Shown piece after piece: positions 5,927-64,000 of a DNA stretch of 64,000 nucleotides. The stretch lies in assembly GCA_900314585.1 (NCBI GenBank), contig OMVV01000004.1, forward strand, positions 34,166 to 98,165. The letters run 5' to 3'. The DNA comes from an uncultured Erysipelotrichaceae bacterium (GTDB lineage: Bacteria > Bacillota_I > Bacilli_A > RFN20 > CAG-826). Under the pieces are notes generated by a model, which saw only the letters and a list, made by a program, of their open reading frames with translations, was not told the origin of the DNA and ran no database searches. The translations under genes and the position numbers were made by a program. Position 1 is the stretch's first letter, and each line of letters opens with the position of its first letter.

Positions 5927-6033
5927 ATTCTTTCTCCAATTGCGCCTTACAATGATACAAAAAAAGTGGTTATCTTTTCAATAACTATTTTGTTATAATC
6001 AATTTTTAGAAATTGACTTTAGGTAATATTACA

Positions 6034-7977
6034 ATGGCAAAAATTGACGAAAAAACATCCTATACAGCCGCCGATATTGAGATTTTAGAAGGTCTTGCTG
6101 GTGTTAGAAAAAGACCGGCAATGTACATCGGATCAACCAACCAAACTGGTCTTCATCATCTTGCTTGGGAAATACTTGATAATGCGGTTGATGAAGCTTT
6201 AAGTGGCTTCGGAAAAGAAATTAAAATCATCATCCACAAAGATGGATCTTTATCTGTTGAAGACGAAGGAAGAGGCATTCCTGTCGATATACATCGACAG
6301 ACTGGTATGCCTGCGGTCCAATTAATCTTCTCCACGTTACACTCAGGTGGTAAATTTTCGTCAAAAGTTTATACCTCCAGCGCTGGCCTTCATGGTGTTG
6401 GCTCTGCCGTTACAAATGCTCTTTCAAATTATTGTGATGTTACCGTTTTTCGTAGTGGCAAAATCAACCATCTCCGTTTTGAAGATGGCGGAAAACTTGT
6501 CACACCTCTTGAAGTTCTTGGTAATACCAAGAAGCATGGTACCTTAGTCCGCTTCAAACCTGATGCAAGAATCTTCTCAACAACCGATTTCAAGTTTGAG
6601 ATCATCGCTAATCACATCAAGGAAAGTGCCTTCCTTTTAAAAGGCGTAAAATTCTCCCTCTTTAGTGAAAAAACTCAAGAAAAAGTCGAGTTTTGTTATG
6701 AGGATGGAATTAGGGCCTATATTAAGGATATTCAAGCAGGCAAAAATGTTCTTGGAGATGTCATTTCCTTTGAAGGAGAAGACGACACAATCAAGATTGA
6801 TATTGCTATGCAATATGCCTACCAAGATTATGGTGAAAATATCTACTCATACGCTAACAATGTTCGTACTCGTGATGGTGGTACCCACGAACAAGGTTTT
6901 AGAGCAGGTATCACTAAAGCAGTCAATGATTATGCTGAAGAAAATTCCTTATTAAAAGGAAAAACTAAGCTCGAAGGTAGCGATATTCGTGAAGGTTTAA
7001 CCGCAGTTATTTCCTTAAAAATCCCTGAAGCTAAACTTGAATATGAAGGTCAAACTAAGCAAAAATTAGGTACTCCTGAAGCTTTACCAATCCTAACAAA
7101 CTTTATTTATAATAACTTTAGTTATTATCTTAATGAAAACAAAGAGTTCGCTGTTAATTTAATCAAGAAATGTATCGATGCACAAACGGCTCGTGTTGCA
7201 GCAAGAAAAGCTAAAGATGAAGCCCGCAGCAAACGTACATTAAAACAAGATGTTGTTTTATCTGATAAATTAACACCTGCAACTAGCAAGGATTACGATA
7301 AGAACGAATTATTCATTGTTGAGGGTGATTCTGCTGGTGGAACTGCAAAAAGTAGCCGTGATAGAATGCATCAAGCAATATTACCACTTCGTGGTAAACC
7401 ACTAAACACTTTTGGCATTCCTGTTGAAAAAACTCTTAAAAATGAAGAATGTGCAACAATGATCAATACGATCGGTGCTGGTGTTAAAGAAACATTTAAT
7501 GCCGATAATTCCCATTATGGGAAAGTCATCATTATGACCGATGCTGATACCGATGGAGCGCACATCCAAACCTTATTAATTACCTTCTTTTATAACTACA
7601 TGAGACCCCTCATTTTGAAGGGAAAACTCTTTGTTGCAATGCCACCTTTATATCGTGTTGCCAAGGAAGTAAATCATAAAATGATTTATAAGTACGCTTG
7701 GAACGACAATGATTTAGAAGTTGCCAAGAAAGAAGTTGGTGCGGGTTGCCGCGTTTCTAGATATAAAGGTTTAGGCGAAATGAACGCTGAACAACTTTGG
7801 GAATCAACGATGGATCCAAAACGTCGTCAACTCCTCAAAGTTACAATTGAAGATGCTTTAATTGCTGAGCAACGTGTTCAAACACTTATGGGCAACGATG
7901 CTCAGGCAAGAAGAAGCTGGATTGAAGAAAATATCAATTTCAATGAAGTTGATTCATTTATCGAGGAGGTGAAATAA
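6034..7977 (+). CDS. parE: DNA topoisomerase IV subunit B
   Basis: GHKL ATPase plus TOPRIM motifs (EILDNAVDE, EGDSAGG, PLRGK, DADTDGAHI). plsY-parE-parC synteny supports ParE over GyrB. I prefer the ATG at 6034 over the TTG at 6013. Confidence 0.85.
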   Translation: MAKIDEKTSYTAADIEILEGLAGVRKRPAMYIGSTNQTGLHHLAWEILDNAVDEALSGFGKEIKIIIHKDGSLSVEDEGRGIPVDIHRQTGMPAVQLIFSTLHSGGKFSSKVYTSSAGLHGVGSAVTNALSNYCDVTVFRSGKINHLRFEDGGKLVTPLEVLGNTKKHGTLVRFKPDARIFSTTDFKFEIIANHIKESAFLLKGVKFSLFSEKTQEKVEFCYEDGIRAYIKDIQAGKNVLGDVISFEGEDDTIKIDIAMQYAYQDYGENIYSYANNVRTRDGGTHEQGFRAGITKAVNDYAEENSLLKGKTKLEGSDIREGLTAVISLKIPEAKLEYEGQTKQKLGTPEALPILTNFIYNNFSYYLNENKEFAVNLIKKCIDAQTARVAARKAKDEARSKRTLKQDVVLSDKLTPATSKDYDKNELFIVEGDSAGGTAKSSRDRMHQAILPLRGKPLNTFGIPVEKTLKNEECATMINTIGAGVKETFNADNSHYGKVIIMTDADTDGAHIQTLLITFFYNYMRPLILKGKLFVAMPPLYRVAKEVNHKMIYKYAWNDNDLEVAKKEVGAGCRVSRYKGLGEMNAEQLWESTMDPKRRQLLKVTIEDALIAEQRVQTLMGNDAQARRSWIEENINFNEVDSFIEEVK

Positions 7978-7978
7978 G

Positions 7979-10603
7979 ATGGCTAAAAAAGTAAGCGCAC
8001 CTCAAGAAGAAATCATCGAAAATATCCATAATGAAACAATGGAAGAGATCATGTCTGATCGATTTGCGACCTATGCAAAATACGTCATTCAAGATCGTGC
8101 AATTCCCGATGTTCGTGATGGTTTAAAACCAGTTCAACGCCGCATTATTTATACTATGTATAAAGACGGCAATATTTATTCTCGTCCAACTCGTAAATGT
8201 GCTCACACCGTTGGTACTGTTATGGGTGAATACCACCCACATGGTGATAGCTCAATTTATGAAGCTTTAGTAAGAATGTCACAAACTTGGAAGGTTAATA
8301 ATCCATTAATCGACTTCCAAGGTAATAATGGTTCAATCGATGGCGATGGTCCAGCTGCGTATCGATATACCGAAGCTAGATTATCCCAAATCGCTGAAGA
8401 AATGGTTCGCGACATCGATAAGGATACAGTCGATGAATCATTAACCTTCGATGATAGTCAATATGAACCAGTTGTTTTACCAGCCCGATTCCCAAATTTA
8501 CTCGTTAACGGAACCGAAGGTATCGCGGTTGGTATGGCGACAGAAATTCCAACTCATAACCTCAGAGAGGTTATTGACGCGATTATTTATCGTATTAACC
8601 ACGTTAGAGTGGAACCGATTGATTTAATGGAATTTATCAAAGGACCAGACTTTCCAAGTGGTGGTCTTATCTATAAATCCAATGGTTTAACTGACATCTA
8701 TTTAACTGGTCGTGGACGTATCGAAGTAGCCTCAAAAACCGAGGTTATTGACACTCCAAAAGAGAAGAAAATTATTGTCACTGAAATTCCGTTTAAAACT
8801 TTAAAAATTGAACTTGTTCACGAAATTGATATGCTTCGTCATAACAATGTTTTGCCAGGCATTCAAGAAGTTCGCGATGAATCAGACCGTAATGGTTTAC
8901 GCATCGTTATTGAAATTAAAAAAGATGCCAAGATTGATGTTATACATCAATACTTGATGACAAAATCATCCTTAAAGACTGGCTATTCTGCAAATATGGT
9001 CGCCATTGTCAATGGTTCACCAAAAACGATGAATATCCTCGACTTTATCGATAATTATATCGATCACCAAGTTGATGTCATTACTCGTCGTTCAACTTTT
9101 GAACTTAATAAGAGTGAAAATCGCTTAGCGATCGTCAATGGTTTAATCAAAGCGATCTCAATTCTTGATCAAGTTGTTGATACAATTCGTAAATCGAAGG
9201 ATAAAGCGGATGCGAAGAAAAATTTACAAGAAAGATTCGCATTTTCGGAAGCTCAATCTGAAGCGATTGTTATGCTTCAACTTTACAAGTTGTCCAACAC
9301 CGATATCACAACTTTAGAAAATGAGAAAAAAGCGTTAGAAGAGAACATTGAATTCCTTAAAGGAATTCTTTCCGATAGAAATAAGCTTAATCGCCTTCTT
9401 GTTTCCGATCTTAAAGAAATCGCTAAAAAATATGGCAAAGATCGTAAAACTCAGATCGTTGAAAAGGAAGAAACAGGCACAATTGATAAACGTGACTTAA
9501 TTTCTAAAGAAGAAGTAATGCTCGCCGTTTCTCGCGATGGCTACATCAAACGTTCAACCATCAAATCATATCGTTCTAGCGGAGACAACGCTCTTCCTGG
9601 TATGAAAGATGGTGATGCTTGCATTTATTTAGGTAAAGCAATGACAACCGATTATTTGGTCTGTTTTACCAACTTAGGAAACTTCTTATACATTCCTGTT
9701 CATCAAATTCAAGAAACCAAATGGCTTCAAGAAGGTAAACACATCAATTACCTTATTAATTTAAATCCTAATGAAAAAATCGTGCGTGCCTACGTTGTGG
9801 AGAAATTTAGAAATGATTTATTCTTCGTTATTGTCTCGAAACGTGGACAAATCAAACGATTAAGCCTTGATAACTTCCAAGTTATCAGATATTCAAAACC
9901 TTTAACTTGCATCAAACTTTTAGGTGATGATGAAGTTGCGGATGTTTCTTTCACAACCGGCGATTCCAATTTGATGTTATTTTCAAGCGATGGAAACGCG
10001 GTTATGTATAACGAAAATGAATTACCAACAGCCGGTATGAGAAGCGGTGGCGTTAAAGGCTTCGCTAAGCTTGGCACTGCGAAGGTTATTTCCTTGCTCT
10101 CATTTGAGAAAGATAAACTTGAAGGAAAAGCCATTCTTCTCACCGATAAAGGCTGCGTTAGAATCTATGATGTTCGCAAGACCGAACTTACTTCTCGTCT
10201 TGGAAAATCAAGTGTTGTCTTCAAATCATTTAAGTCTGACGAACATAAACTAGTTTATGTTAAAATGGTCGATTCTAAAGATGAAGTCACCAATATCAGA
10301 ATCCTCAACAATCTCAAAGAAGTTGTGGAAGTTAAGGTCGATGATTACCATCTCACCCCAATGGATTATTACGCTCATCAAACCATCGAAATGAGTGCGA
10401 AAAATCGTCTCGAAATTCCATTCATTGAGGGTAATGATTACATCAAAAAAGACACCATTTCCTATGCAAAATTTGATCCAGAAGAAAAGGTGAAAACTGA
10501 AGTCGATATTGTCGGCCCATCAGCCGAGGAAATCAAAGAGGAAAAAGCTGAGGAAGAAAAAGGCTACACTCAGATCTCCATCTTTGATGATGATCTAGAC
10601 TAA
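7979..10603 (+). CDS. parC: DNA topoisomerase IV subunit A
   Basis: Type IIA A-subunit (DGLKPVQRRI, HPHGD, AAYRYTEARL with the catalytic Tyr). No GyrA-box (QRRGGKG) is visible in the C-terminal domain. Acidic C-terminal tail. Confidence 0.85.
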   Translation: MAKKVSAPQEEIIENIHNETMEEIMSDRFATYAKYVIQDRAIPDVRDGLKPVQRRIIYTMYKDGNIYSRPTRKCAHTVGTVMGEYHPHGDSSIYEALVRMSQTWKVNNPLIDFQGNNGSIDGDGPAAYRYTEARLSQIAEEMVRDIDKDTVDESLTFDDSQYEPVVLPARFPNLLVNGTEGIAVGMATEIPTHNLREVIDAIIYRINHVRVEPIDLMEFIKGPDFPSGGLIYKSNGLTDIYLTGRGRIEVASKTEVIDTPKEKKIIVTEIPFKTLKIELVHEIDMLRHNNVLPGIQEVRDESDRNGLRIVIEIKKDAKIDVIHQYLMTKSSLKTGYSANMVAIVNGSPKTMNILDFIDNYIDHQVDVITRRSTFELNKSENRLAIVNGLIKAISILDQVVDTIRKSKDKADAKKNLQERFAFSEAQSEAIVMLQLYKLSNTDITTLENEKKALEENIEFLKGILSDRNKLNRLLVSDLKEIAKKYGKDRKTQIVEKEETGTIDKRDLISKEEVMLAVSRDGYIKRSTIKSYRSSGDNALPGMKDGDACIYLGKAMTTDYLVCFTNLGNFLYIPVHQIQETKWLQEGKHINYLINLNPNEKIVRAYVVEKFRNDLFFVIVSKRGQIKRLSLDNFQVIRYSKPLTCIKLLGDDEVADVSFTTGDSNLMLFSSDGNAVMYNENELPTAGMRSGGVKGFAKLGTAKVISLLSFEKDKLEGKAILLTDKGCVRIYDVRKTELTSRLGKSSVVFKSFKSDEHKLVYVKMVDSKDEVTNIRILNNLKEVVEVKVDDYHLTPMDYYAHQTIEMSAKNRLEIPFIEGNDYIKKDTISYAKFDPEEKVKTEVDIVGPSAEEIKEEKAEEEKGYTQISIFDDDLD

Positions 10604-11231: not shown

Positions 11232-12373
11232 TGTCACAAATCTCACAAATCAGAAGATGCTATAACTGCGGTGCAGTTTTACAAAGCACAGATCCAAACA
11301 AAGAAGGTTATGTCAACAAAGAAGTTTTAGAAAATAATTCTCAGAACTTTATTTTCTGTAATAAATGTTTTGAAATTGAAAGATTTCAGCCTAAAACCAA
11401 TGAACCAGTTGTTGGGGAAGATTTAATTAAAATCGTTCAAGACGCTAAAGATAAAGACGCCCTCTTAGTTTATGTTATTAACTTATTCTCCTTCGAAGCC
11501 TCTTTCTCTCGTAAAATTGATGAAATCATCAATGGCATGAATATTCTCATCGTCGCTAATAAGTTTGACTTGATGCCAAAAGGCACCAATGAAGACGAAA
11601 CACGTGAGTATGTTGCGCACCGTTTCCGTGCTGAGGGCGTGCGTGTCGAAAAAGATAACATCGTGCTCGCTAACGCCTTCGATGACGATACCGCACGCTC
11701 AATCATCGCGCAAATTTATGAACTTAAAAATGGTAAGGATGTTTACATCCTTGGTTCATTATATGCCGGTAAAACAACTCTTATTGATTCCTTCTTAAGA
11801 GTGTACAAAAACCTCTCCCAAGGAAACATTGTTTCTCAAGAGTACCCAGGCACAAAATCACGCGTGTTACAACTCCCACTTAGCCCACGCACAATGATGT
11901 ATGAAATCCCATCAATTCCAAATAATAACTCGATCTTACATAACTTAGATGTTCCATCTACCAAGAAGATCTATGTTACTGAACCAGTCGAATATCGCGA
12001 CATCGCCTTAAAAGAAGACGAAGTCTTATATTTCGGTGGAATGAGTTTTGTTGAACTTGTTAAAGGAAAGAAAACATCACTTCGTTGCTATTTCGCTGAT
12101 GGCGTTCAACTTAAGAAACGTTCAAACAATAAATGTGAAGAAGCTTTCGTTAAGGCTATCGCTAAGAAAGCTGTTAAACCTGTCTGCTCACGCATCAAGA
12201 GTGTGAAAGACTTAGACGTCTTCGAAATTAAAGTCACCGAATCCAATTACCGAGATATTGGTATTCAAGGTTTAGGCTGGTTTAATTTCTTAGCTAAAGA
12301 CCAAACCTTTAGAATCTACGTTCCAAAAGGTGTCTCAATTTATACTTCTCGACCAAAAATCGATCGAAAATAA
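11231..12373 (+). CDS. yqeH: Ribosome-biogenesis GTPase YqeH
   Basis: N-terminal CxxC...CxxC zinc finger and a circularly permuted GTPase (NKFD before GSLYAGKTT). Operon context. Confidence 0.85.
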   Translation: MSQISQIRRCYNCGAVLQSTDPNKEGYVNKEVLENNSQNFIFCNKCFEIERFQPKTNEPVVGEDLIKIVQDAKDKDALLVYVINLFSFEASFSRKIDEIINGMNILIVANKFDLMPKGTNEDETREYVAHRFRAEGVRVEKDNIVLANAFDDDTARSIIAQIYELKNGKDVYILGSLYAGKTTLIDSFLRVYKNLSQGNIVSQEYPGTKSRVLQLPLSPRTMMYEIPSIPNNNSILHNLDVPSTKKIYVTEPVEYRDIALKEDEVLYFGGMSFVELVKGKKTSLRCYFADGVQLKKRSNNKCEEAFVKAIAKKAVKPVCSRIKSVKDLDVFEIKVTESNYRDIGIQGLGWFNFLAKDQTFRIYVPKGVSIYTSRPKIDRK

Positions 12374-13470
12374 TGAATTACATAATCTTCGGAGGAACTT
12401 TTGACCCAATTCACAATGGGCATCTTCGAATTGCAAACTTTGCTGCGAAGAAATTTTCTGCGAAGGTTATTTTTGTTCCAAATAAATCTCCACGTTGGAA
12501 AGAACCTTTAACCGATATCTCTCATCGATTAAATATGCTTAAGATTGCTTTAAAAGAAGCAACTTTTGAATATGAAATCTCTGATTATGAGATAAATAAG
12601 AGTGATGATATCAATTATTCAATTGATACAGTTAAATATTTTAAAGATAAATATCCAAACGATAAACTCTACTTCCTTATCGGCGCTGATCAAGTAAATC
12701 AATTTGATAAATGGAAAGATGCGGTGGAGCTATCTAAACTTTCAACAGTTATTTATTCAGATCGTCCTGGCTTTGAACTTAACAAAGAGATAATCCAAAA
12801 GTTTAATCTCGTACCTTTAGGATATCTAGAATCTGGAGAAGTTTCTTCTAGTGATATCCGCGAGCTTAAATCTTTAGATTTAAGTGAGGAAGTTCTTCGT
12901 TATATTGAAGATAACAAGCTTTATTTTGTGGGTAGAATCGCTAAATACGTCACTCCAAAAAGGCTTAATCACTCAATCCAAGTTGCTAGACTTGCTTATG
13001 AAGTCGCGAAAGTTAATAAGCTAGAAAATCCAGAACGATACTATATCGCAGCAATCCTTCATGATGTTGGTAAAACCAGCAAATGCGACGCAGAAGATGC
13101 GGTGGAGTTCATGAAAAAGAATTATCCAGAGTATGTTGATTTACCAAAATTCGCATATCACCAATTTATTGGTGAATATATCGCTAAAAAAGACTTTAAC
13201 ATCAAAGACGAAGAAATACTTGAGGCCATTAAATTCCATTGCACCGGTAACTCAGATATGAAGAAAATCGGGATGGTGGTATATGCCTCAGATAAAATCG
13301 AACCAACAAGAGAATTTGATTCAACCTGGTTAATCAATTCCTGTTTGAATGATTGGTATCAAGGTTTCATCGACACTTTAGTGGATAATAAAAAGTATCT
13401 TTTAGGCCATGCCAAAGACATTACAAATAAATTAACCGATGCTTGTTTTAAGCAATACATAGGAGACTGA
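12373..13470 (+). CDS. nadD: Nicotinate-nucleotide adenylyltransferase fused to YqeK HD-domain hydrolase
   Basis: N-terminal half carries GGTFDPIHNGH (the HxGH nucleotidyltransferase motif). C-terminal half carries H...HD(V)GK...H HD-domain motifs typical of YqeK. One uninterrupted 365-codon frame. Confidence 0.85.
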   Translation: MNYIIFGGTFDPIHNGHLRIANFAAKKFSAKVIFVPNKSPRWKEPLTDISHRLNMLKIALKEATFEYEISDYEINKSDDINYSIDTVKYFKDKYPNDKLYFLIGADQVNQFDKWKDAVELSKLSTVIYSDRPGFELNKEIIQKFNLVPLGYLESGEVSSSDIRELKSLDLSEEVLRYIEDNKLYFVGRIAKYVTPKRLNHSIQVARLAYEVAKVNKLENPERYYIAAILHDVGKTSKCDAEDAVEFMKKNYPEYVDLPKFAYHQFIGEYIAKKDFNIKDEEILEAIKFHCTGNSDMKKIGMVVYASDKIEPTREFDSTWLINSCLNDWYQGFIDTLVDNKKYLLGHAKDITNKLTDACFKQYIGD

Positions 13471-13471
13471 T

Positions 13472-13789
13472 ATGGATAAAGTTGTTACACTCGCCAAGAA
13501 ATTATTAAACGATCACAAGGCAGAAGATGTCGTTGTTATCGATGTTAAAGAAAGAACGCCGTTTGCGGAATATTATGTCCTTGCTTCAGCGAGCAATATT
13601 CGTCAACTTAATGCCTTAACTGAGATCATTGAAGATGAATTTTCCAAGAAGAAAATAAGCATCAATCATATCGAAGGAACTCCTGAATCTGGATGGATGC
13701 TAATTGATGCTCATCATGTCATCATAAACATCTTCTCAAAAGAGGAAAGAGAACGTATTAGCTTGGAAAAAATCCTCGCTAAAAACTAA
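13472..13789 (+). CDS. rsfS: Ribosome silencing factor RsfS
   Basis: ~105 aa, AEYYVLASASN...GW.LIDAHHVIINIF pattern. Operon position after yqeK. Confidence 0.85.
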   Translation: MDKVVTLAKKLLNDHKAEDVVVIDVKERTPFAEYYVLASASNIRQLNALTEIIEDEFSKKKISINHIEGTPESGWMLIDAHHVIINIFSKEERERISLEKILAKN

Positions 13790-13810
13790 GATCAAATCAT
13801 TAAAGAAAAT

Positions 13811-13845
13811 AAGTGTGTCAACATTGGGCACACTTTTATTTTTAC
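13811..13845 (+). terminator. Intrinsic terminator after rsfS operon
   Basis: AAGTGTG-11 nt-CACACTT followed by TTATTTTT. Confidence 0.7.
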
Positions 13846-13874
13846 ATTTTTGTGGAAATGGTCAAAAATATACA

Positions 13875-13902
13875 ACTTCGCATAATTGCTATTATGTTAA
13901 CC
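13875..13902. other. dif: dif-like XerC/XerD chromosome dimer resolution site
   Basis: ACTTCGCATAA-TTGCTA-TTATGTTAACC. Arms match E. coli dif (GGTGCGCATAA-TGTATA-TTATGTTAAAT) at 8/11 and 9/11. They match B. subtilis dif (ACTTCCTAGAA-TATATA-TTATGTAAACT) at 8/11 and 9/11. The site lies in a non-coding gap at the coding-strand switch. Confidence 0.7.
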
Positions 13903-14013
13903 AAATACTAGAAAAGCAAGATTTAATCGAAATAAAACAAGATAAAACAGCAAGAGACTTTTTCAAACCTTCTGTTAAAAGAGTGACTTACCCACATAAA
14001 TTTTGTTGATTAA

Positions 14014-14033
14014 ATCTACTAATTATCTACTAA
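14014..14033. repeat. Two phased CTACTAA direct repeats (spacing 11 bp)
   Basis: ATCTACTAATTATCTACTAA. Same unit and orientation as the arrays at 5160 and 22183. About 110 bp from the dif-like site. Confidence 0.75.
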
Positions 14034-14052
14034 AAAATAGTGGTTTTTATCA

Positions 14053-14610
14053 TTGCTACTACTCTTTTTTCTTAATAATATATATAATAAATTCACGATG
14101 ATAAACGATAATTCTATATACTCTTTTGCTGTCGTTTTAGCTAGTGGTCTACCGCAGCTACTTTTCCTATTTATCAATCCTAAAAAAATCCTTCCAAAAG
14201 AGCTTTACCGAGGTCGCTATTTAGTGCTTGCTTTATTGTCAGTTTTCTCTTTTATTGGATACTCAATTACAGTCATTTTTCTATCTTCCTCATTCGGAAC
14301 AATTGCTAGATTGATCATCTGGATCATCACTTCGCATACGGGTGTATCCTTAATATTACTCTCGTGGGCGTACGTAATAATGCACGGGTGCGAGCTAAGG
14401 TATATGTTTAAGAAGTTTTTATTACCTTGTCACATGAATGTTTTGATCATTCTTGTTATGCTAATAACTTCCCTACTTTCGCTTAATTTTTGGTCTTTAA
14501 TTCCATTAGCTATATTCGCTGTTTCATCTTATTTATGGGCTTTTAAAGCATACAAAATCACTAAGCCGCTCATTGATGACGACACGCCGATCAGAGAGGA
14601 TTATGAATAA
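14053..14610 (+). CDS. Hypothetical polytopic membrane protein
   Basis: About 5-6 hydrophobic segments and no motif I recognise. The track start is TTG. The first ATG is at 14098 (MINDNSIY...). Neither has an SD. A TATAAT lies at 14084-14089. Confidence 0.55.
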   Translation: MLLLFFLNNIYNKFTMINDNSIYSFAVVLASGLPQLLFLFINPKKILPKELYRGRYLVLALLSVFSFIGYSITVIFLSSSFGTIARLIIWIITSHTGVSLILLSWAYVIMHGCELRYMFKKFLLPCHMNVLIILVMLITSLLSLNFWSLIPLAIFAVSSYLWAFKAYKITKPLIDDDTPIREDYE

Positions 14611-14611
14611 T

Positions 14612-14646
14612 AAAAACACCGTATATACGGTGTTGTTTTATTTTTT
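14612..14646. terminator. Bidirectional intrinsic terminator between convergent genes
   Basis: Perfect palindrome AACACCGTAT/ATACGGTGTT flanked by an A-run and a T-run. Overlaps the permease stop codon. Confidence 0.75.
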
Positions 14647-15414
14647 AGCTTGATTTTTCTTTATTTTTTCGTTTATGAAGAACGCAGCCAATGTTATTAG
14701 AAGCATCAACACCACTGCGATTAATGAATAAGCGAATACAGGCGTCATATTGGTCGGATCATTTATCTGAGCGCCTTTAATGAGGCTTCCTATTCCGTTT
14801 CTGGTATAGCCAGTGATGACTTCAGCCATGATTTCAATTTTAAATGAGAGTGAAAATGCAGAAATCATCCCTACTACGATAAACGGCATGCTGAGTGGAA
14901 GTTGAATCTTAAACAACTTTTTGAATTTATTTGCTCCATCGACGTTTGCAGAATCAATAATTTCTTGATCACTGCTTTTTAAGCCGCCAACAATCGCCTC
15001 ATAAAGGATTGGAGTGGCAATTAATATGACAACGAGCATTGGAGCGTACTGCGCCCCTATCACTACAATGAACAAAAATACTAATGCTGCCGTTGGAATA
15101 GCTTTGAAGAATGTCATTAATGGAGTGAAGAATTGATACATCTTTTCACTGTCATTAACGATCATTCCTAAAGCAAAGGCGATAACAAACGCGATTAAAA
15201 ATCCTATCAACATTCTTAATAAAGAATGACCTAGGCAAATATATGTATAACCTTCCTTTAAATATTCCCTTGCTAAGACGATTGTATCGATTGGAGAGGG
15301 AACAATCGTTGAATTAACACATAAAGAAATAATTAACCATAAAAGGAAAACAAAAATCGTTCCATAAAGGAAGATCATGTACTTATTAGTAATAAATTTC
15401 TTCACTTGTTGCAT
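14638..15414 (-). CDS. ABC transporter permease (NitT/TauT-like, BPD_transp_1)
   Basis: Six TM segments and an EAA-like loop (DSANVDGANKFKKLFKIQLP). I prefer the ATG at 15414 over the TTG at 15423. It overlaps the upstream SBP gene by 29 nt, so the start is uncertain. Confidence 0.8.
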   Translation of the reverse strand: MQQVKKFITNKYMIFLYGTIFVFLLWLIISLCVNSTIVPSPIDTIVLAREYLKEGYTYICLGHSLLRMLIGFLIAFVIAFALGMIVNDSEKMYQFFTPLMTFFKAIPTAALVFLFIVVIGAQYAPMLVVILIATPILYEAIVGGLKSSDQEIIDSANVDGANKFKKLFKIQLPLSMPFIVVGMISAFSLSFKIEIMAEVITGYTRNGIGSLIKGAQINDPTNMTPVFAYSLIAVVLMLLITLAAFFINEKIKKNQAKK

Positions 15415-18181: not shown

Positions 18182-19060
18182 TTATTTGCGTTTTGTAAAC
18201 AAATCATATGCATCAAGAATTCTTTTCGTCGATACATTTGTGTAGATTTGAGTTGTTGATAAATTACTATGTCCAAGCATCTCTTGAAGAGCGCGGAGCT
18301 CTGCTCCATTTTCAAGCATATGGGTTGCAAAGCAATGTCTTAATGTATGTGGAGAGATATCTTCTTCAATATTTGCTTCTTTGGCGTACTTTTTGATTTG
18401 CTTAAAGAAGTATTGTCGAGATAATGGTTCTCCATATCTATTTAAAAATAGATAACCAGTTCTTTTACCAGGATTATGGATTCGGTGTTCATCGATATAT
18501 TTGTTCACAAACTCTAAAGCGTATTCACCAATTGGAACTTTTCTTTGTTTATTACCTTTACCGATGATATCAATGACACCTTTTTCAAGATTGATTTGCT
18601 TTATTTTTAAAGATAAGAGTTCGCTGACACGAAGACCACTTGAATACATGACTTCAAGCATCGTTCGATCTCGATAGCCTTCGTCTTTATTTAGGTCAGG
18701 CGCCGCTAACAAATCTTCAACTTCTTCAACTGAAATAGTCTTTGGTAGATGCTTCATCTTCTTTGGACGATCAAATTCAGGGACTGTGAAGTCGATTATA
18801 TTCTCACGTTTGAGGAATAAGTAAAAGTTCAGGGTTGATGATATTCTTCTTAGGATTGTGGGAACTGATAATTGTTGTTTCATCTGGATAGTGACAAAGT
18901 CACTGATGTCAGTTGGAAGCATGTCTTCAGTCGTGTCTTTGGGAATAGATTCAAAGAATTTTTTAATATCATAGGCATAGTTAACAATCGTCTGTTTTGA
19001 GACGCCGTTTTCAACCTTGAGATATTGAAAATATAGATCTACTGCATCACTTAATTCCAT
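18182..19060 (-). CDS. xerD: Tyrosine recombinase XerD/XerC family
   Basis: R...HxLRH...LGHSNLSTTQIYTNV catalytic signature, ~290 aa. Adjacent to deoB like ripX (xerD) in B. subtilis. The XerC versus XerD assignment rests on synteny only. Confidence 0.65.
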   Translation of the reverse strand: MELSDAVDLYFQYLKVENGVSKQTIVNYAYDIKKFFESIPKDTTEDMLPTDISDFVTIQMKQQLSVPTILRRISSTLNFYLFLKRENIIDFTVPEFDRPKKMKHLPKTISVEEVEDLLAAPDLNKDEGYRDRTMLEVMYSSGLRVSELLSLKIKQINLEKGVIDIIGKGNKQRKVPIGEYALEFVNKYIDEHRIHNPGKRTGYLFLNRYGEPLSRQYFFKQIKKYAKEANIEEDISPHTLRHCFATHMLENGAELRALQEMLGHSNLSTTQIYTNVSTKRILDAYDLFTKRK

Positions 19061-33369: not shown

Positions 33370-34077
33370 TTATTCGAAGTGAATAGATTGGATATACATT
33401 GAAAACTTGCTCTCATTTAAAAGGGTGAGAGTAGTCGCTTCAGATGCGTTGATCGAATATTCAAAATCGTAGACGTTGAATTCTTCGTTTACAGCGGATG
33501 GAAATGATGTGAGTAAAGTTGGCGCTTCAACGCGGTCATCTTTCCCTAAATAAATAGTTGGAGGATAGTCCATGTGATAGCTATTTTTACTATGAGTAAC
33601 TAGTTCTAGAACAAGTTTTGTAGGTTTTATTGAAGAGATTTGAAGCTGTCCTCCATCAGGCCACGATTCGTGGTTTTTCTTACACAAATGGATGATCTGA
33701 AAACCTTTATATTGAATCAGACTACCATTGATATTAACGGCGATTTCTTTGACTGCTCGCATGCCATAAGCGTAGACATTCGTTCCATCGATGTCATAAG
33801 TTTTATGATAGGCAGCATAGCCAAGCGATTCGGAAGGATCTTTGAAATTTTCGTAGTCAAGATCCCACGGCAAAGAATGTTCTGCACCTTGTTCAACGAC
33901 ATCCGCTCTTGAAGGGCCAGTAGTTGACGAGGTTGTTTTACTTGATGAAGATGCAGAAGTTATCTCAGTGTTTTCGCTAGTTTGTCCACTACTATTTTTC
34001 TTCTTTGAAGAACCTTGTCCAGAACAACTTGCAACACTAAGGGTGACTAACAATAAAATTAACCAACTTTTTTTCAT
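33370..34077 (-). CDS. Lipoprotein of unknown function (island gene 2; 'module A' type)
   Basis: MKKSWLILLLVTLSVAS-C lipobox, SGQGSSKKKNS, Ser/Thr linker, body ending MYIQSIHF. Its start overlaps the stop of the upstream gene (TAATG). Confidence 0.8.
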   Translation of the reverse strand: MKKSWLILLLVTLSVASCSGQGSSKKKNSSGQTSENTEITSASSSSKTTSSTTGPSRADVVEQGAEHSLPWDLDYENFKDPSESLGYAAYHKTYDIDGTNVYAYGMRAVKEIAVNINGSLIQYKGFQIIHLCKKNHESWPDGGQLQISSIKPTKLVLELVTHSKNSYHMDYPPTIYLGKDDRVEAPTLLTSFPSAVNEEFNVYDFEYSINASEATTLTLLNESKFSMYIQSIHFE

Positions 34078-36941
34078 TATAAATTCACCTTGTATACTTG
34101 AATAGGAAGTGATTGATTTCCTTGCTTATAGGTATAGAAACGTTTTCCTCCAGTATTGTAATAAACATACTTTTGGTAAGTATTGTCATTGTAGCCTATT
34201 TGAATGCTGTCATAATCATCTTTCTCTTGAATAGTAATAAGCTTTTGCTTCTTATCTGCCGTTTTCTTAAATGATGGAGCATCTTTATTCACGGTCAATT
34301 TTAATTCGCTTGATGTGCCAACTGTGCTGGCAAGATAAATTGCTATTGGATTGATTTTGGTACCATCACTAAGTTCAACTTGTTCATCAAGTTTTTTGAT
34401 GTAGAAAGCTGCTCTTTCAACTTTAGCATCATAAATGGTTAGAGTATCGCCGATATTAGTGCTGTGTTGATAATCGAAATAATTTCCTTCTCGTTCATTA
34501 GTCCTGGTGTTCCAAATTTCATTATTTTCATTGCTTAAAGCACCATTCCAAACTCTTGTCTTGGTTGTGTCGTCACGATCGATACAGGTGATAATGTAAT
34601 ATCCTTCCGCATCAAAATCGGCATTTGATTTGACCTTGGTGTATGTCTTCGCGACGTATGGTTTAACGTGAATTGTGTTCGCGTTAACTTCTAATTCGTT
34701 TTCAAGTTCACCAATTGAAGTAGTCACACTAAGTGTGAAACCGTTATTCATCATGTCCATTGTTGCTTCATTTGGGAAGTCAAAATTAAACAATGGAGTT
34801 GCTTTAACTTTGTTATCTTCTTGAATGTAGATATCGAATTCAAGAGCTTCAGCGTATGACAAAGTAAGTGATGTTGAATCATCATAAGTAATAACGACTT
34901 GAACACCAGTGTAATCCATCAAATCATGTTCATCATAATCAGTTTTTGAAAGTGAATTACAAACGATTTGAACACTTTGAATTGCTTTAACACTAACTTG
35001 ATCAGCTGGAATTTCTAATGTTCCAACTTTGTTATCAAGATCACATTTAACTGAAACAGAGAAACCTTCAGTTTGCATCGACTTGCTCACCACAAGTGGT
35101 GAATATGATGCATAATCATATCTTGGAGTCTTTTTGTTCGAATTATTTGGATCTAGATATGTTTGTGATGAAAGTTGAGAGAATTTAAATGTTTCACTGC
35201 TTTCATCATCATATGTGATTTTTGCATTGAATTCGGAATAGTCAATCTTTTCACCTTCGGTGAGACTTGGATTATAAAGTGTTTCACCATCTTTATAAAA
35301 TACTGCAATATCGGCTACTTGTTTGACGATCAAATCATTCTTTTTGAATGCAAAAGTTGAACTTTTACCAGTTAAATTGTGTTTAAGTGTAATTGTATAA
35401 CCGTTTTGTAATGCTTTGATGGCGTATTCATGAAGATTTGTAGCGGAAAATGTTTCTTTGAATTGAGCGGTTTTATAATCTTTTAAGTCATATGTTAAAA
35501 CCGGTTCTTCAGCGTCGGCCATTAGATTAATCTTAATGCCAGTATAATCAATCTCATCATAGATGAGGTATTCGTGTTTTTCTGTTAAACTACCAGTGAT
35601 TTGAATACTCTTAAGCTCTGGATAAACAACAATTGGATACGAAGTTTTTTGAGTTTGAATAACACTACCTTTTTTGTAAGTATAGGATAGATTTACATCT
35701 TGATTTGCGGCTTCATTAATGAATTTGCCATCTTTGCCTAAATTATCAGTTGTTATGTTGAGTAAATGAGTTACATCAACCTTTGTTTCAGGTGATTCTG
35801 AGAAAAAGGCGTTAACGACTAAACCATTAGTATTAAATGCGGTGCCTTTAAAGAAGGCAGTTGGTTGTTCTGATGTTTCAGAATCGACTTCAATCTTTTG
35901 AAGATCACCACGATAATATTCGATGATGATTGCTTTTAGATAGATTGCTCCAGAATTAACTTTTGTTTCTGGATCATAGTAAGTTGGAGAGAAATGAATC
36001 TTGATATCTCCTGTTAAGACTTTATCGTTAAATTCTTCACCTGTAACTGTATCAAGAGGTTGATCGGTTGAATATTTTGGAGTGGCGACATCATTAACAT
36101 ACTTTGTATTTCCTACGGAAATAGTAATATGAGATGTACCTTCATCACCGCTCTTACCATAACCTGAACCGGTATTATAATGAGCGGCAGAAGATGAACA
36201 TAAAACTGATATTTTACGAATATATCTTGTATTTTCGGTTGAAAACTCGACATTGCCATAAGGGTCTGCTTTCGAGCCAAATGTCAAGGATTGACCACCG
36301 CCCACATTCTTTGTTGGAGTGTCGAACTTAAAGTTCCACTCCATTCCGGAAAGTGTAACGGTTCCTTCGCTTCTTGCTCGACCATCATCACCATTAAATT
36401 TATTAGCATCATTCTTATTATCTCCGGTCTTATCGATTTGCCAGAAATATGTATAGTCTGAATTATCGATAACTGTGATCGTAACTTCGTCAGTTAATGA
36501 ACGGTTATATTGTGAACGAGCTGTTAAGGTTGACGTGCCTTCTTTTAACGCCGTTAAAACACATTGACTAGTTTTATCTGGGTTTGGCTCAACTAGTAAT
36601 ACTTTTTCGTTGGATGATTTCCAATCAATGCCTTTTTCATCATCGCCACCACCGCCTTTAAATGTAACTGAGAAATCAAGGGTGGTTTTGTTTTGCATGA
36701 AAAAGTCTTTGGTGTATTTCATCGAAATACCCGTAATGTGCTTATCTGCAACCTCGCCTTCTCCTGGAGTACCTTCATGATCATCAATTGGTGGAGCCGG
36801 ATTAACAGGAGTAACCTCAGATGAATCAGGTTGACTCGATGAAGAAGATTTTTTCTTAGTAGACTTTGAGCCGGAATTACAACCAGCAAGAATAACTGTA
36901 GACATCGCTAGCAGTGACATAATAATCTTTTTTGTTTTCAT
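34077..36941 (-). CDS. Large multidomain surface lipoprotein (Big_2-like + module A + ~4 Ig-like repeats + module B)
   Basis: MKTKKIIMSLLAMSTVILAG-C lipobox, NSGSKSTKKKSSSSS linker. Big_2-like segment (ITGISM...LTALKEGTSTLTA...VTITV). Four ~100-aa repeats share an (I/L)xx(I/V)x(I/V)...DYTG(I/V) pattern. GGAGGA RBS and an upstream TATAAT. Confidence 0.85.
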   Translation of the reverse strand: MKTKKIIMSLLAMSTVILAGCNSGSKSTKKKSSSSSQPDSSEVTPVNPAPPIDDHEGTPGEGEVADKHITGISMKYTKDFFMQNKTTLDFSVTFKGGGGDDEKGIDWKSSNEKVLLVEPNPDKTSQCVLTALKEGTSTLTARSQYNRSLTDEVTITVIDNSDYTYFWQIDKTGDNKNDANKFNGDDGRARSEGTVTLSGMEWNFKFDTPTKNVGGGQSLTFGSKADPYGNVEFSTENTRYIRKISVLCSSSAAHYNTGSGYGKSGDEGTSHITISVGNTKYVNDVATPKYSTDQPLDTVTGEEFNDKVLTGDIKIHFSPTYYDPETKVNSGAIYLKAIIIEYYRGDLQKIEVDSETSEQPTAFFKGTAFNTNGLVVNAFFSESPETKVDVTHLLNITTDNLGKDGKFINEAANQDVNLSYTYKKGSVIQTQKTSYPIVVYPELKSIQITGSLTEKHEYLIYDEIDYTGIKINLMADAEEPVLTYDLKDYKTAQFKETFSATNLHEYAIKALQNGYTITLKHNLTGKSSTFAFKKNDLIVKQVADIAVFYKDGETLYNPSLTEGEKIDYSEFNAKITYDDESSETFKFSQLSSQTYLDPNNSNKKTPRYDYASYSPLVVSKSMQTEGFSVSVKCDLDNKVGTLEIPADQVSVKAIQSVQIVCNSLSKTDYDEHDLMDYTGVQVVITYDDSTSLTLSYAEALEFDIYIQEDNKVKATPLFNFDFPNEATMDMMNNGFTLSVTTSIGELENELEVNANTIHVKPYVAKTYTKVKSNADFDAEGYYIITCIDRDDTTKTRVWNGALSNENNEIWNTRTNEREGNYFDYQHSTNIGDTLTIYDAKVERAAFYIKKLDEQVELSDGTKINPIAIYLASTVGTSSELKLTVNKDAPSFKKTADKKQKLITIQEKDDYDSIQIGYNDNTYQKYVYYNTGGKRFYTYKQGNQSLPIQVYKVNL

Positions 36942-47950: not shown

Positions 47951-48217
47951 TCAATTATTTTTGATCGATTGGATTTTTTCATCATCATAGAAGGCATTAA
48001 GAACTTCTTCGGCTTCCTTAAATTCTTCATCATCTTCGATCTCAGCTAATGAATTATCTTTTTCATTATATGAAAAGACGAGAACGTTTTCTTCATCTTT
48101 TTCATCATATAAAAAGACATAGGATTTGTGACGTTGTTCATTTTCATAAGTGAAAAGAATTTTCATCACTTTATCACCATCTGGGGTTGACACTAACATT
48201 TCATCATCTAGTAACAT
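47951..48217 (-). CDS. DUF1292/UPF0473 (YrzB-like) protein
   Basis: 88 aa, acidic, with the typical pattern (DGDK..K.LF.Y......YVFLYDE.DEE). alaS-ruvX-yrzB synteny. Confidence 0.7.
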   Translation of the reverse strand: MLLDDEMLVSTPDGDKVMKILFTYENEQRHKSYVFLYDEKDEENVLVFSYNEKDNSLAEIEDDEEFKEAEEVLNAFYDDEKIQSIKNN

Positions 48218-62210: not shown

Positions 62211-64000
62211 CTAATTGTTTTCGTCTTCTACTTTAGGCTCATCAGGAATAAAGGTTGATTGTTCAATCGTCCCCATTTGTTGTTCTTGTTTGCCTTTAAT
62301 AAGAACTTTTGAGCCACGAGCGTCTCCACCACGAGCAACATAACCATCTTGAATAAGTTTGTTAAACAAACGGCCTGCTTTTGGGAAGCCGACACCATAA
62401 GTTCTTTGAATGTATGATATTGAACAATATTCGCGATCGACGATGCTTTCTTTAATTAATTCGTAAAGTTGTTCTTCAGCCATATCCTTATCGATAACAC
62501 CAACATCTGGATCTCCATTATTTGCTGGAGCATCATTATGTTCTTCTAAATCCATAAATTCTGGATCATATTGTTCTGGATAATGATTTCTTAAGAAATC
62601 ACAAACACGGTTAATTTCTGGAACATCGACAAAACAGCCTTGGACACGTGGTTTAATTGAGCGAGATATAAGTGGGCAATCAACGATCATATCACCGTTT
62701 CCAGCCAATGTTTCAGCGCCAGCTTGGTTAATAATGGAAATTGAGTCAACTTGAGAGGCAACCGCTAAGGCAACACGAACCGAGACGTTAGCTTTAATAA
62801 CGCCATCGATAACATTGACGCTTGGACGTTGAGTTGCGATGACTAAATGAATACCAGCTGCACGAGCTTTTTGAGCGATTCTAACAACTGGCCCTTTAAT
62901 ATCTTTAACTTCTTCAACTAAGTCAGCGTATTCATCAATGAATACGACGATATATGGAAGAGGTTGTAAGTTAGCAGTTTTCGCAAATTCGTTAAAGCCT
63001 TTAATATCACGAACTCTATTTGCCGCAAATAAGTTATAACGACGTTCCATTTCATCAACGAGTTTCTTCATTGCCACATAGGCTTTGTTAGATTGCGAAA
63101 TATTTGGACAAAGTAAATGTGGAATTTTCTCGTAATAGGCCATTTCAACTTTCTTTGGGTCAATCAAAACAATTTTCAATTCATCAGGCTTGTTTCTCAT
63201 AATCAATGAGAGAATGAGTGAGTGCATGAAAATTGTTTTACCAGAACCGGTTGTACCAGCGACGAGCATGTGTGGGAAGTCAGAAAGATTTGCACTTAAA
63301 AGTTCGCCAGTAATATTTTTACCAAATGGAATATAGCGTAAATACTTTGGTCCAGTTGGAAGTTTTTCAATCGATTCACGAAGTCCAACATTTGTGCGAA
63401 CGGCATTTTGGATTTCTAAACCAGATGTTGCTTTTCCATAAACGATCTTCTCAAAACGGATTGGAACGCCATTTAAACGGATTGATATGTCTTCGACATA
63501 TCTTGCAACTGTATTGATCGAAACATCGCTATTGGTTTGAACATCGTATCTAGTGACACACGGGCCAACGGTTGAACCAACAACTTTCGCTCCAATATGG
63601 AGTTGATCAAAAATCAGATTGATATTATCAATTGTAGCTTGAGTTGATGCAGCGTTTTTCTCAGCATCATCGCTACCTTCATGGTAATCAAGTAAATCTA
63701 AAGGTGGGTAAATGTAGTTTTTAATTGGATGAGCTTTTGGTTGTCCACGATGAAGTTTATCAACTTCCTCTGCTGGTTCTTCTTCCTTGATAGGCTCTTC
63801 CGTATTTTCTTCCGCCATTAATGGAGAAGTAGTTACTTCTGGAGTAACACTTTCAACTGGAGCTTCATTCTCTTCTTGAAAGTCTGGAACGATTTCTTCG
63901 TTATCGTCATTAACTCCATCTAAAGAGATATCTTCATGATCATATTCATCTTCATCATTAAATGATGGAGCGGAGAATCCTTCTTCTTCAACTTCTGGAG
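62211..64000 (-). CDS. ftsK: DNA translocase FtsK/SpoIIIE (linker, motor and gamma domains; 5' end outside window)
   Basis: Walker A VAGTTGSGKT, Walker B VVFIDEYADL, ATQRPS, winged-helix gamma domain (YIQRTYGVGFPKAGRL). The frame stays open upstream of the track's Met to the window edge, through an acidic linker. Confidence 0.9.
   Translation of the reverse strand, partial: PEVEEEGFSAPSFNDEDEYDHEDISLDGVNDDNEEIVPDFQEENEAPVESVTPEVTTSPLMAEENTEEPIKEEEPAEEVDKLHRGQPKAHPIKNYIYPPLDLLDYHEGSDDAEKNAASTQATIDNINLIFDQLHIGAKVVGSTVGPCVTRYDVQTNSDVSINTVARYVEDISIRLNGVPIRFEKIVYGKATSGLEIQNAVRTNVGLRESIEKLPTGPKYLRYIPFGKNITGELLSANLSDFPHMLVAGTTGSGKTIFMHSLILSLIMRNKPDELKIVLIDPKKVEMAYYEKIPHLLCPNISQSNKAYVAMKKLVDEMERRYNLFAANRVRDIKGFNEFAKTANLQPLPYIVVFIDEYADLVEEVKDIKGPVVRIAQKARAAGIHLVIATQRPSVNVIDGVIKANVSVRVALAVASQVDSISIINQAGAETLAGNGDMIVDCPLISRSIKPRVQGCFVDVPEINRVCDFLRNHYPEQYDPEFMDLEEHNDAPANNGDPDVGVIDKDMAEEQLYELIKESIVDREYCSISYIQRTYGVGFPKAGRLFNKLIQDGYVARGGDARGSKVLIKGKQEQQMGTIEQSTFIPDEPKVEDENN

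What the first reader, a model, noticed from the sequence alone, without database searches (positions are those of the whole stretch)
13875..13902. dif-like Xer site exactly at the coding-strand switch: probable replication terminus
ACTTCGCATAA-TTGCTA-TTATGTTAACC has the 11-6-11 dif architecture with inverted inner arms CATAA/TTATG. It matches the E. coli and B. subtilis dif arms at 8/11 (left arm) and 9/11 (right arm) each. It lies in a ~260-bp non-coding gap. Genes to the left (0.4-13.8 kb) are almost all on the plus strand. Genes from 14.6 to 51 kb are almost all on the minus strand. That is the pattern expected where replication forks converge. A Xer-family recombinase is 4.3 kb away (18182-19060), and FtsK is in the same window.
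Basis: partly seen in the sequence, partly recalled or inferred. Interest (0 to 1): 0.6.

Follow-up and report, generated by a model that had tools for sequence, protein, structure and literature searches.

The report
Chromosome dimer-resolution site dif at terminus
The 28-base sequence is very probably the ordinary dif site, where the XerC and XerD recombinases separate joined sister chromosomes, and it marks the replication-terminus region of a small uncultured gut bacterium; it is well supported but is a known kind of element.

Summary
**Verdict: supported and ordinary. This is a new member of a known kind.**

- **The sequence.** ACTTCGCATAA-TTGCTA-TTATGTTAACC is at 13875-13902 as described. 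It is unique in the 1.04 Mb, 30-contig assembly.
- **Similarity alone does not decide.** Three places in the genome match each model dif equally well. One of them lies inside parC and is not conserved in relatives.
- **Conservation.** The two 11-bp arms occur once per genome in 23 of 24 congeners and in 10 of 16 genomes from other families of the order. The first four central bases vary freely, and the flanks are far less conserved than the arms.
- **Position.**
  - On the 102 kb contig, 35 of 39 genes left of the site are on +, and 39 of 45 right of it are on -.
  - The cumulative purine and A-T skews peak 55-98 bp past the site.
  - A polar word, GTGGTGG, was derived without using this contig. 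It points at the site in 29 of 29 copies.
  - G-C skew in this genome is too weak to locate anything.
  - In a relative with a 1.03 Mb contig, the cumulative G-C maximum falls 37 bp from the homologous site.
- **Partner genes.** XerD-like and XerC-like recombinases are present, and so is an FtsK with a gamma domain. dnaA sits at a divergent strand switch on another contig.
"Exactly at the switch" is off by one gene, about 0.7 kb.

The parts
13875..13885 (+). Left arm of dif, ACTTCGCATAA. It is the presumed XerC-side half-site.
   Evidence: Near-invariant among 14 congeners, with a mean of 1.93 bits per column; only position 7 varies, C or T. 8/11 to the E. coli and B. subtilis left arms. The assignment to XerC is by analogy with E. 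coli dif and is an inference.
13886..13891 (+). Central region, TTGCTA, where strand exchange would occur.
   Evidence: The first four bases vary freely among congeners (0.1-0.9 bits). The last two, TA, are fixed within the genus. There are 59 different centres among 120 sites with the same arms in public genomes.
13892..13902 (+). Right arm of dif, TTATGTTAACC. It is the presumed XerD-side half-site.
   Evidence: 1.91 bits per column among congeners. 9/11 to the E. coli and B. subtilis right arms. The two bases after it (AA, 13903-13904) are also invariant in the genus.
13811..13845 (+). Terminator-like hairpin plus T run that ends the nadD-yqeK/rsfS operon, just upstream of dif.
   Evidence: 9-pair stem followed by TTATTTTT.
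13472..13789 (+). rsfS, the last gene of the left (+) replichore arm before the site.
   Evidence: TIGR00090 at 90 bits, PF02410. It holds the same position next to the site in most of the relatives checked.
14053..14610 (+). 185-aa ORF with no family match. It lies between dif and the true convergent point.
   Evidence: No Pfam or NCBIfam match. Homologues of about 30% identity sit at the same position in 4 of 10 relatives.
14615..14634 (.). Two-way terminator-like hairpin at the point where + and - genes actually converge.
   Evidence: 8-pair stem with T runs on both strands.
18182..19060 (-). XerD-like tyrosine recombinase, 4.3 kb from dif.
   Evidence: TIGR02225 at 317 bits (curated cut-off 329.6); NF001399 at 298 bits, over its cut-off of 279. 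The best solved structure is E. coli XerD 1a0p at 1.9e-50; the conserved catalytic-motif stretches (GLRVSEL, GKGNK, H-x-L-R-H, LGHS...IYT) align to it in the printed alignment. The deoB-xerD-dinB block stays 3.7-5.1 kb from the site in all 10 relatives checked.
62211..64000 (-). ftsK. It continues past the window end to C12:98970, and is the only FtsK/SpoIIIE gene found in the assembly.
   Evidence: PF01580 at 178.5 bits and PF09397 (gamma domain) at 46.7 bits, both in one 868-aa open frame.

Best explanation
The 28-mer is the chromosomal dif site of this organism. By the titles of congeneric records, the organism is an uncultured gut MAG of about 1 Mb labelled "Bacilli bacterium".

**Proposed mechanism.**
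1. When homologous recombination joins the two sister chromosomes into a dimer, the septal translocase FtsK pumps DNA towards the terminus. It would be guided by polar words on the leading strands.
2. This brings the two dif copies together.
3. FtsK activates XerD, bound to TTATGTTAACC, through its gamma domain.
4. XerD and then XerC, bound to ACTTCGCATAA, exchange strands across the 6-bp centre and restore monomers.

The site therefore also marks the junction of the two replichores, that is, the terminus region.

**Shown here:** the site, its uniqueness, its conservation pattern, its position at the polarity switch, and the presence of xerC, xerD and ftsK with a gamma domain.

**Inferred from the E. 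coli and B. subtilis systems:** binding, which arm each recombinase uses, the order of cleavage, dependence on FtsK, and the exact place where the forks meet.
For: 1. **Conservation.**
- The arms are present once per genome in 23 of 24 congeners and in 10 of 16 genomes of other families of the order. The reversed-pattern control gave 1 hit in all 41 genomes.
- Column information among 14 congeners is 1.93 and 1.91 bits for the arms, 0.1-0.9 for the first four central bases, and 0.57 and 0.89 for the 50-bp flanks.

2. **Same arms in distant taxa.** They occur in at least 120 genomes of many phyla. These include loci of 61-68% G+C, where an A+T-rich 28-mer is not expected by chance. The sites carry 59 different centres.

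3. **Position in the window's own genome.**
- The strand switch is 35/39 on + left against 39/45 on - right.
- The cumulative purine maximum is at C12 48,122 and the A-T maximum at 48,165; the site is at 48,040-48,067.
- G-C skew is +0.015 on the left and -0.020 on the right.
- The word GTGGTGG is the most strand-skewed 7-mer on the other contigs, 103 to 5. On C12 it stands 13 of 13 on + left of the site and 16 of 16 on - right of it.
- dnaA lies at a divergent strand switch on C17.

4. **Position in relatives.**
- In all 10 relatives examined, genes and G-C skew switch sign at the site.
- In G038, on a 1.03 Mb contig, the cumulative G-C maximum is at 146,636 and the site at 146,572-146,599. 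The minimum is 700 kb away.

5. **Machinery.** XerD-like, XerC-like on C19, and FtsK with a gamma domain.

6. **Published criteria.** The criteria used for dif prediction (similarity, single copy, palindromic arms, closeness to the skew shift point) are those of Kono et al. 2011, PMC3025954.
Against: - No experiment supports it.
- The assembly is 93% complete and in 30 contigs, so a second copy or a second convergence point in missing sequence cannot be excluded.
- The raw cumulative G-C maximum on C12 is at 74.9 kb, not at the site.
- The purine and A-T skew, and partly the polar word, follow coding strand. They are therefore not fully independent of gene orientation.
- Synteny around the site is conserved across the order. 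The relatives are thus not independent witnesses of position.
- Both Xer proteins score just under the curated equivalog cut-offs (317 against 329.6 for XerD; 317.5 against 335 for XerC).
Confidence: 0.9

Rival explanations
1. Chance resemblance. This would be an A+T-rich imperfect palindrome in an intergenic gap that merely looks like dif.
For: Three places in the genome reach the same 5 arm mismatches to each model dif. One of them, inside parC at window 10238-10265, even has a 10/11 XerD-type arm.
Against: The parC look-alike is not conserved in relatives. The intergenic site keeps both arms in 23 of 24 congeners and in other families, although its 50-bp flanks are far less conserved (0.57 and 0.89 bits against 1.9 for the arms). 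It is the only place that matches both models at once.
Confidence: 0.01
2. Operator or other protein-binding palindrome for a transcription factor that controls the neighbouring genes, unrelated to Xer.
For: The site lies in a promoter-like A+T-rich gap upstream of the ORF at 14053. Weak promoter-like hexamers overlap it. The conserved block extends 2 bp beyond the right arm, and an ATCG box lies 24-27 bp downstream.
Against: The downstream ORF is absent in many relatives that keep the site. The same arms occur in unrelated phyla with different neighbours and G+C content. The 11-6-11 layout with a free centre and the position at the skew maximum in G038 are specific to dif. Rfam gave nothing.
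Confidence: 0.03
3. A Xer-exploiting mobile element (IMEX) junction, or a dif served by a single recombinase of the XerS or XerH type, rather than a plain XerCD dif.
For: The orphan 185-aa ORF next to the site is variably present among relatives. That is the kind of variability seen next to dif where elements integrate.
Against: There is no second dif-like site flanking the ORF; the next best match in the genome has 8 mismatches. Two Xer paralogues are present. The best difSL match in the genome has 9 mismatches. The two copies in relative G004 are overlapping contig ends of two strain variants at 93% identity, not a duplication.
Confidence: 0.04

Closest known systems
E. coli dif with XerC, XerD and FtsK
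   Same: The site has 28 bp in an 11-6-11 layout. The inner arms are CATAA/TTATG. The right arm matches 9/11 and the left 8/11. It is single copy and lies at the junction of the replichores. The XerD-like protein aligns to E. coli XerD 1a0p over 272 residues, including the conserved catalytic-motif stretches. FtsK has a gamma domain.
   Different: The outer left-arm bases are ACTT rather than GGTG. The centre is TTGCTA rather than TGTATA. No GGGNAGGG words are present; the strongly polar word here is GTGGTGG. xerD lies 4.3 kb from dif.
B. subtilis dif with CodV (XerC) and RipX (XerD)
   Same: The outer left arm ACTTC is identical, and the arms match 8/11 and 9/11. The organism belongs to the same class by the titles of related records. 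From my own knowledge, not tested here, deoB (drm) sits next to xerD (ripX) in B. subtilis as well.
   Different: The inner left arm is GCATAA, as in E. coli, rather than CTAGAA. GAGAAGGG (the SpoIIIE recognition word) is not enriched or skewed: 2 on the leading strand against 2 on the lagging. Only one FtsK/SpoIIIE gene was found.
Computationally predicted dif sites across phyla (Kono et al. 2011, PMC3025954)
   Same: This site meets the same criteria: similarity, one copy, palindromic arms and closeness to the skew shift point. That paper notes that Firmicutes-type dif profiles transfer across many phyla. This agrees with the exact arms found here in Gemmatimonadota, Myxococcota and other groups.
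   Different: That survey used closed genomes of cultured organisms and included only one Tenericutes genome. This lineage of small uncultured gut Bacilli was not available to it.
difSL with XerS of streptococci and lactococci
   Same: It has the same role, and also occurs in class Bacilli.
   Different: It is a 31-bp site served by a single recombinase. The best difSL match in this genome has 9 mismatches. The two Xer proteins score far below the XerS model cut-off (120 and 112 bits against 267).

Membership tests
chromosomal dif (XerC/XerD target) | 28 bp made of two 11-bp half-sites in partial inverted repeat around a 6-bp centre, resembling known dif | tested here: met
   17/22 arm bases match each of the E. 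coli and B. subtilis dif sites, with inner CATAA/TTATG.
chromosomal dif (XerC/XerD target) | One copy per chromosome | tested here: met
   unique in the 1.04 Mb assembly (93% complete); one per genome in relatives. The two copies in G004 are overlapping contig ends.
chromosomal dif (XerC/XerD target) | Arms conserved among relatives while the centre is free to vary | tested here: met
chromosomal dif (XerC/XerD target) | Lies at the junction of the replichores, where skew and strand bias shift, opposite the origin | tested here: met
   Own genome: gene strand, purine and A-T skew, and GTGGTGG polarity all switch at or around the site. dnaA is on another contig at a divergent switch. G-C skew alone is inconclusive. 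Distance from the origin cannot be measured in 30 unordered contigs. In relative G038, the cumulative G-C maximum is 37 bp from the site and the minimum 700 kb away.
chromosomal dif (XerC/XerD target) | Cognate XerC and XerD paralogues carrying the conserved tyrosine-recombinase catalytic motifs | tested here: met
   Both pass the tyrosine-recombinase subfamily cut-off (NF001399). Both fall just under the XerD and XerC equivalog cut-offs. For XerD the motif stretches align to E. coli XerD; for XerC they were read by eye in the sequence.
chromosomal dif (XerC/XerD target) | FtsK with a DNA-reading gamma domain to activate recombination | tested here: met
chromosomal dif (XerC/XerD target) | Binding and recombination by XerC and XerD; dimer resolution in vivo | not testable with these tools
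   This needs biochemistry or genetics.
difSL / XerS | 31-bp site and a single XerS recombinase | tested here: not met
   no difSL-like site (9 or more mismatches). XerS model at 120 and 112 bits against a cut-off of 267.

The most novel reading that the evidence does not exclude
GTGGTGG may be this lineage's replication-oriented guide word, a counterpart of either KOPS or Chi, and it differs from the known KOPS words GGGNAGGG, GAGAAGGG and GAAGAAG.

- It is 96% on the leading strand (132 to 5).
- It converges on dif in 29 of 29 copies on this contig and in 68 of 68 copies in eight congeners.
- Inside head-on genes it stays on the leading strand in 6 of 9 cases, rather than following the coding strand.

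If it is a guide word, this dif locus would give an anchor for studying FtsK gamma-domain and motif co-evolution in uncultured reduced-genome gut Bacilli.
Probability: 0.3. Interest if true: 0.4.

Novelty: new member of a known kind. Interest (0 to 1): 0.15.

Why it matters
- It fixes the terminus region of a fragmented MAG and the orientation of one 102 kb contig relative to replication. This helps with scaffolding and with growth-rate estimates from coverage for this uncultured gut lineage.
- It shows that the XerCD/dif/FtsK system is kept in a genome of about 1 Mb.
- It adds nothing new to the biology of dif.
- The polar word GTGGTGG is the only element here that might repay further work.

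Tried and rejected
- **Raw G-C skew on the window and on C12**. The amplitude is about 0.02 and the contig maximum is 27 kb from the site. It was not usable as a locator in this genome.
- **Similarity to model dif sites as a sole criterion**. It is not unique, with three equal matches to each model. The parC look-alike was rejected because it is not conserved. The C17:32521 look-alike was rejected because it lies inside a gene and lacks the TTATG inner arm.
- **Known KOPS and SRS words**. They are absent or unskewed, apart from GAAGAAGA at 107 to 36.
- **GTGGTGG in G038**. It is only weakly skewed there (38 to 16), so the word is not shared across the order.
- **Rfam on 13000-15000**. It gave only sub-threshold chance hits.
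- **The two dif copies in relative G004, as a possible integrated element**. They are overlapping ends of two contigs at 93% identity, which is strain heterogeneity.
- **Literature search for GTGGTGG as a polar word**. It found nothing relevant.
- **Order name.** No order name was established for this organism. Records of congeners are titled only "Bacilli bacterium".

Full report
**Observation**

The 28-mer ACTTCGCATAA-TTGCTA-TTATGTTAACC stands at window 13875-13902, which is C12:48040-48067 of the held assembly. It lies in the 263-bp gap between rsfS (13472-13789, +) and an unassigned ORF (14053-14610, +).

Counting arms only, it has 5 mismatches to E. coli dif and 5 to B. subtilis dif.

It is unique in the window, with 0 expected in shuffles. 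It is also unique in the 1.04 Mb, 30-contig, 93%-complete assembly, where the next best place has 8 mismatches.

**Is it more than chance?**

On resemblance alone it is not. Three places in the genome reach 5 arm mismatches to each model site.
- One is inside parC at window 10238-10265 and has a 10/11 XerD-type arm. It served as a negative control: in nine relatives the corresponding codons differ freely.
- The best B. subtilis-type rival, C17:32521, lies inside a gene in a co-oriented stretch. It has TTATA in place of TTATG.

The site under study is the only place that matches both models at once.

**Conservation**

A search of 41 genomes for the arms, with the centre left free and up to 3 mismatches allowed, found the following:
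- one copy in 23 of 24 genomes of the same genus;
- one copy in 10 of 16 genomes from seven other families of the order;
- one hit for the reversed control pattern.

Among 14 congeners, ungapped columns carry 1.93 and 1.91 bits in the two arms. The first four central bases carry 0.9, 0.1, 0.7 and 0.6 bits, and the 50-bp flanks carry 0.57 and 0.89 bits. This is the pattern expected of a Xer target: the binding arms are held fixed and the exchanged centre is free to vary.

- Most are uncultured gut "Bacilli bacterium" MAGs from horse, rabbit, rumen and human samples. One is titled Candidatus Enteromonas.
- Others are Lacticaseibacillus, Agrilactobacillus, Heliophilum, Longimicrobiales, Polyangiaceae and Omnitrophota. 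Some of these loci have 61-68% G+C.
- The sites carry 59 different centres.

This agrees with the remark of Kono et al. 2011 (PMC3025954) that Firmicutes-type dif profiles transfer across phyla.

**Position in the window's own genome**

- **Gene strand.** On C12 (101.8 kb), 35 of 39 ORFs left of the site are on +. Right of it, 39 of 45 are on -. No other contig shows a clean large-scale + to - convergence.
- **Purine and A-T skew.** The cumulative purine excess peaks at C12 48,122 and the cumulative A-T excess at 48,165. These points are 55 and 98 bp past the site. Both measures follow coding strand, so they are not independent of gene orientation.
- **G-C skew.** It is +0.015 on the left and -0.020 on the right. 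These values have the sign and size seen on one-directional contigs. The skew is too weak to locate anything: the contig-wide cumulative maximum is at 74.9 kb.
- **Polar word.** The most strand-skewed 7-mer on the other contigs, derived without C12, is GTGGTGG at 103 to 5. On C12 it stands 13 of 13 on + up to 42.8 kb and 16 of 16 on - from 57.2 kb, so it brackets the site. Inside head-on genes it is on the leading strand in 6 of 9 cases. A purely codon-driven word would do the opposite.
- **Origin.** dnaA lies on C17 at the divergent strand switch.
- **Actual convergent point.** This is the two-way terminator at 14615-14634, one + strand ORF to the right of the site. "Exactly at the switch" is therefore about 0.7 kb off. 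In several congeners that lack this ORF, the site lies directly in the convergent gap.

**Position in relatives**

- In all 10 relatives examined over 20 kb on each side, and oriented as in the window, genes are on + to the left and on - to the right. G-C skew is positive on the left. On the right it is negative in nine and zero in one.
- In six of the ten, the local cumulative G-C maximum lies within 400 bp of the site.
- The decisive case is G038. It belongs to the same order but a different family, has 26% G+C, and shows skew of about 0.3. On its 1,029,990-bp contig the cumulative G-C maximum is at 146,636 and the homologous site at 146,572-146,599. The minimum is at 847,280, which is 700 kb away in a genome of about 1.4 Mb.
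- Synteny is kept across families, with nadD-yqeK and rsfS on one side of the site and deoB, xerD and dinB on the other. The relatives are therefore not independent witnesses of position. However, flanking proteins fall to 30-60% identity while the arms keep 19-21 of 22 bases.

**Machinery**

- **XerD-like.** The protein at 18182-19060 (-) scores 317 bits on the XerD model, just under its cut-off of 329.6. It scores 298 bits on the tyrosine-recombinase subfamily model, above that model's cut-off of 279. Its best solved relative is E. coli XerD (1a0p, 1.9e-50). The conserved catalytic-motif stretches (GLRVSEL, GKGNK, H-x-L-R-H, LGHS...IYT) align to it in the printed alignment.
- **XerC-like.** A second paralogue on C19:19438-20367 scores best as XerC at 317.5 bits. 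It carries the same motifs, read directly from its sequence.
- **FtsK.** A single FtsK gene (C12:96376-98970; window 62211 onward) has the motor domain and the gamma domain.
- **Topoisomerase genes.** Type IIA topoisomerase genes, probably parE and parC, lie 3-8 kb to the left of the site.

**Mechanism**

This is most likely the ordinary XerCD/dif/FtsK dimer-resolution system. The sequence-level facts above are shown. Binding, the assignment of arms, the order of cleavage and activation by FtsK are inferred from the E. coli and B. subtilis systems.

"Replication terminus" should be read as "terminus region". Kono et al. argue that forks terminate near dif but not necessarily at it.

**Rivals**

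Three rivals were considered: chance, an unrelated operator, and either a junction with a Xer-exploiting element or a single-recombinase site. Together they retain under 10%.
- No second site bounds the neighbouring ORF.
- No known RNA family matches the gap.
- The duplicate in relative G004 is an assembly overlap of two strain variants.

**Novelty and verdict**

This is a new member of a known kind. The prediction is sound and useful for annotating and scaffolding this lineage, but it would not surprise a specialist. The polar word GTGGTGG is the only possibly new element.

Noticed in passing
whole assembly; on C12 from window 8658 (last + copy) to 23000 (first - copy): GTGGTGG is the most strand-skewed 7-mer, at 132 leading against 5 lagging in the assigned contigs. 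It points towards dif in 29 of 29 copies on C12 and in 68 of 68 copies around the site in eight congeners. In head-on genes it stays on the leading strand in 6 of 9 cases. It is a candidate KOPS-like or Chi-like word. It is only weakly skewed in G038, a relative from another family.
   Followed up: partly
window 13926-13929 (ATCG, 24-27 bp after the right arm): An ATCG(A) box sits at a fixed, ungapped distance from dif and is conserved among congeners at 1.6-2.0 bits in an A+T-rich flank. In some relatives it is part of a hairpin followed by a T run, which would be a terminator lying downstream of dif. In this window no hairpin remains.
   Followed up: partly
window 10238-10265 (+), inside parC: A second dif-like 28-mer, GACGAACATAA-ACTAGT-TTATGTTAAAA, has a 10/11 XerD-type arm and lies 3.6 kb from the real site. 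It is not conserved in relatives, so it is a chance match.
   Followed up: yes
window 6013-10603 (+): A GyrB-like and a GyrA-like gene, probably topoisomerase IV genes parE and parC, lie 3-8 kb from dif. The same linkage is seen in all eight congeners checked and in G033.
   Followed up: partly
window 12373-13470 (+): nadD and yqeK are fused into one 365-aa frame. It matches NF005519 over its full length, as well as TIGR00482 and TIGR00488. The gene is kept next to the site across the order.
   Followed up: partly
window 14014-14033; L217 (G004:C9) about 170 bp after its dif: The CTACTAA pair downstream of dif recurs at a similar place in a congener, as AAAAACTACTAAAAAACTACTAA. It is therefore conserved, and not an accident of this genome.
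   Followed up: no
C17, near 9.3 kb (outside the window): dnaA lies at the divergent gene-strand switch of contig C17, which is the probable origin region.
   Followed up: partly
window 34077-36941 (-): A 954-aa ORF has no Pfam match and only a weak RNase A-like lipoprotein hit at its N terminus. Next to it lies a 914-aa divergent SecDF-like protein (38648-41392).
   Followed up: no
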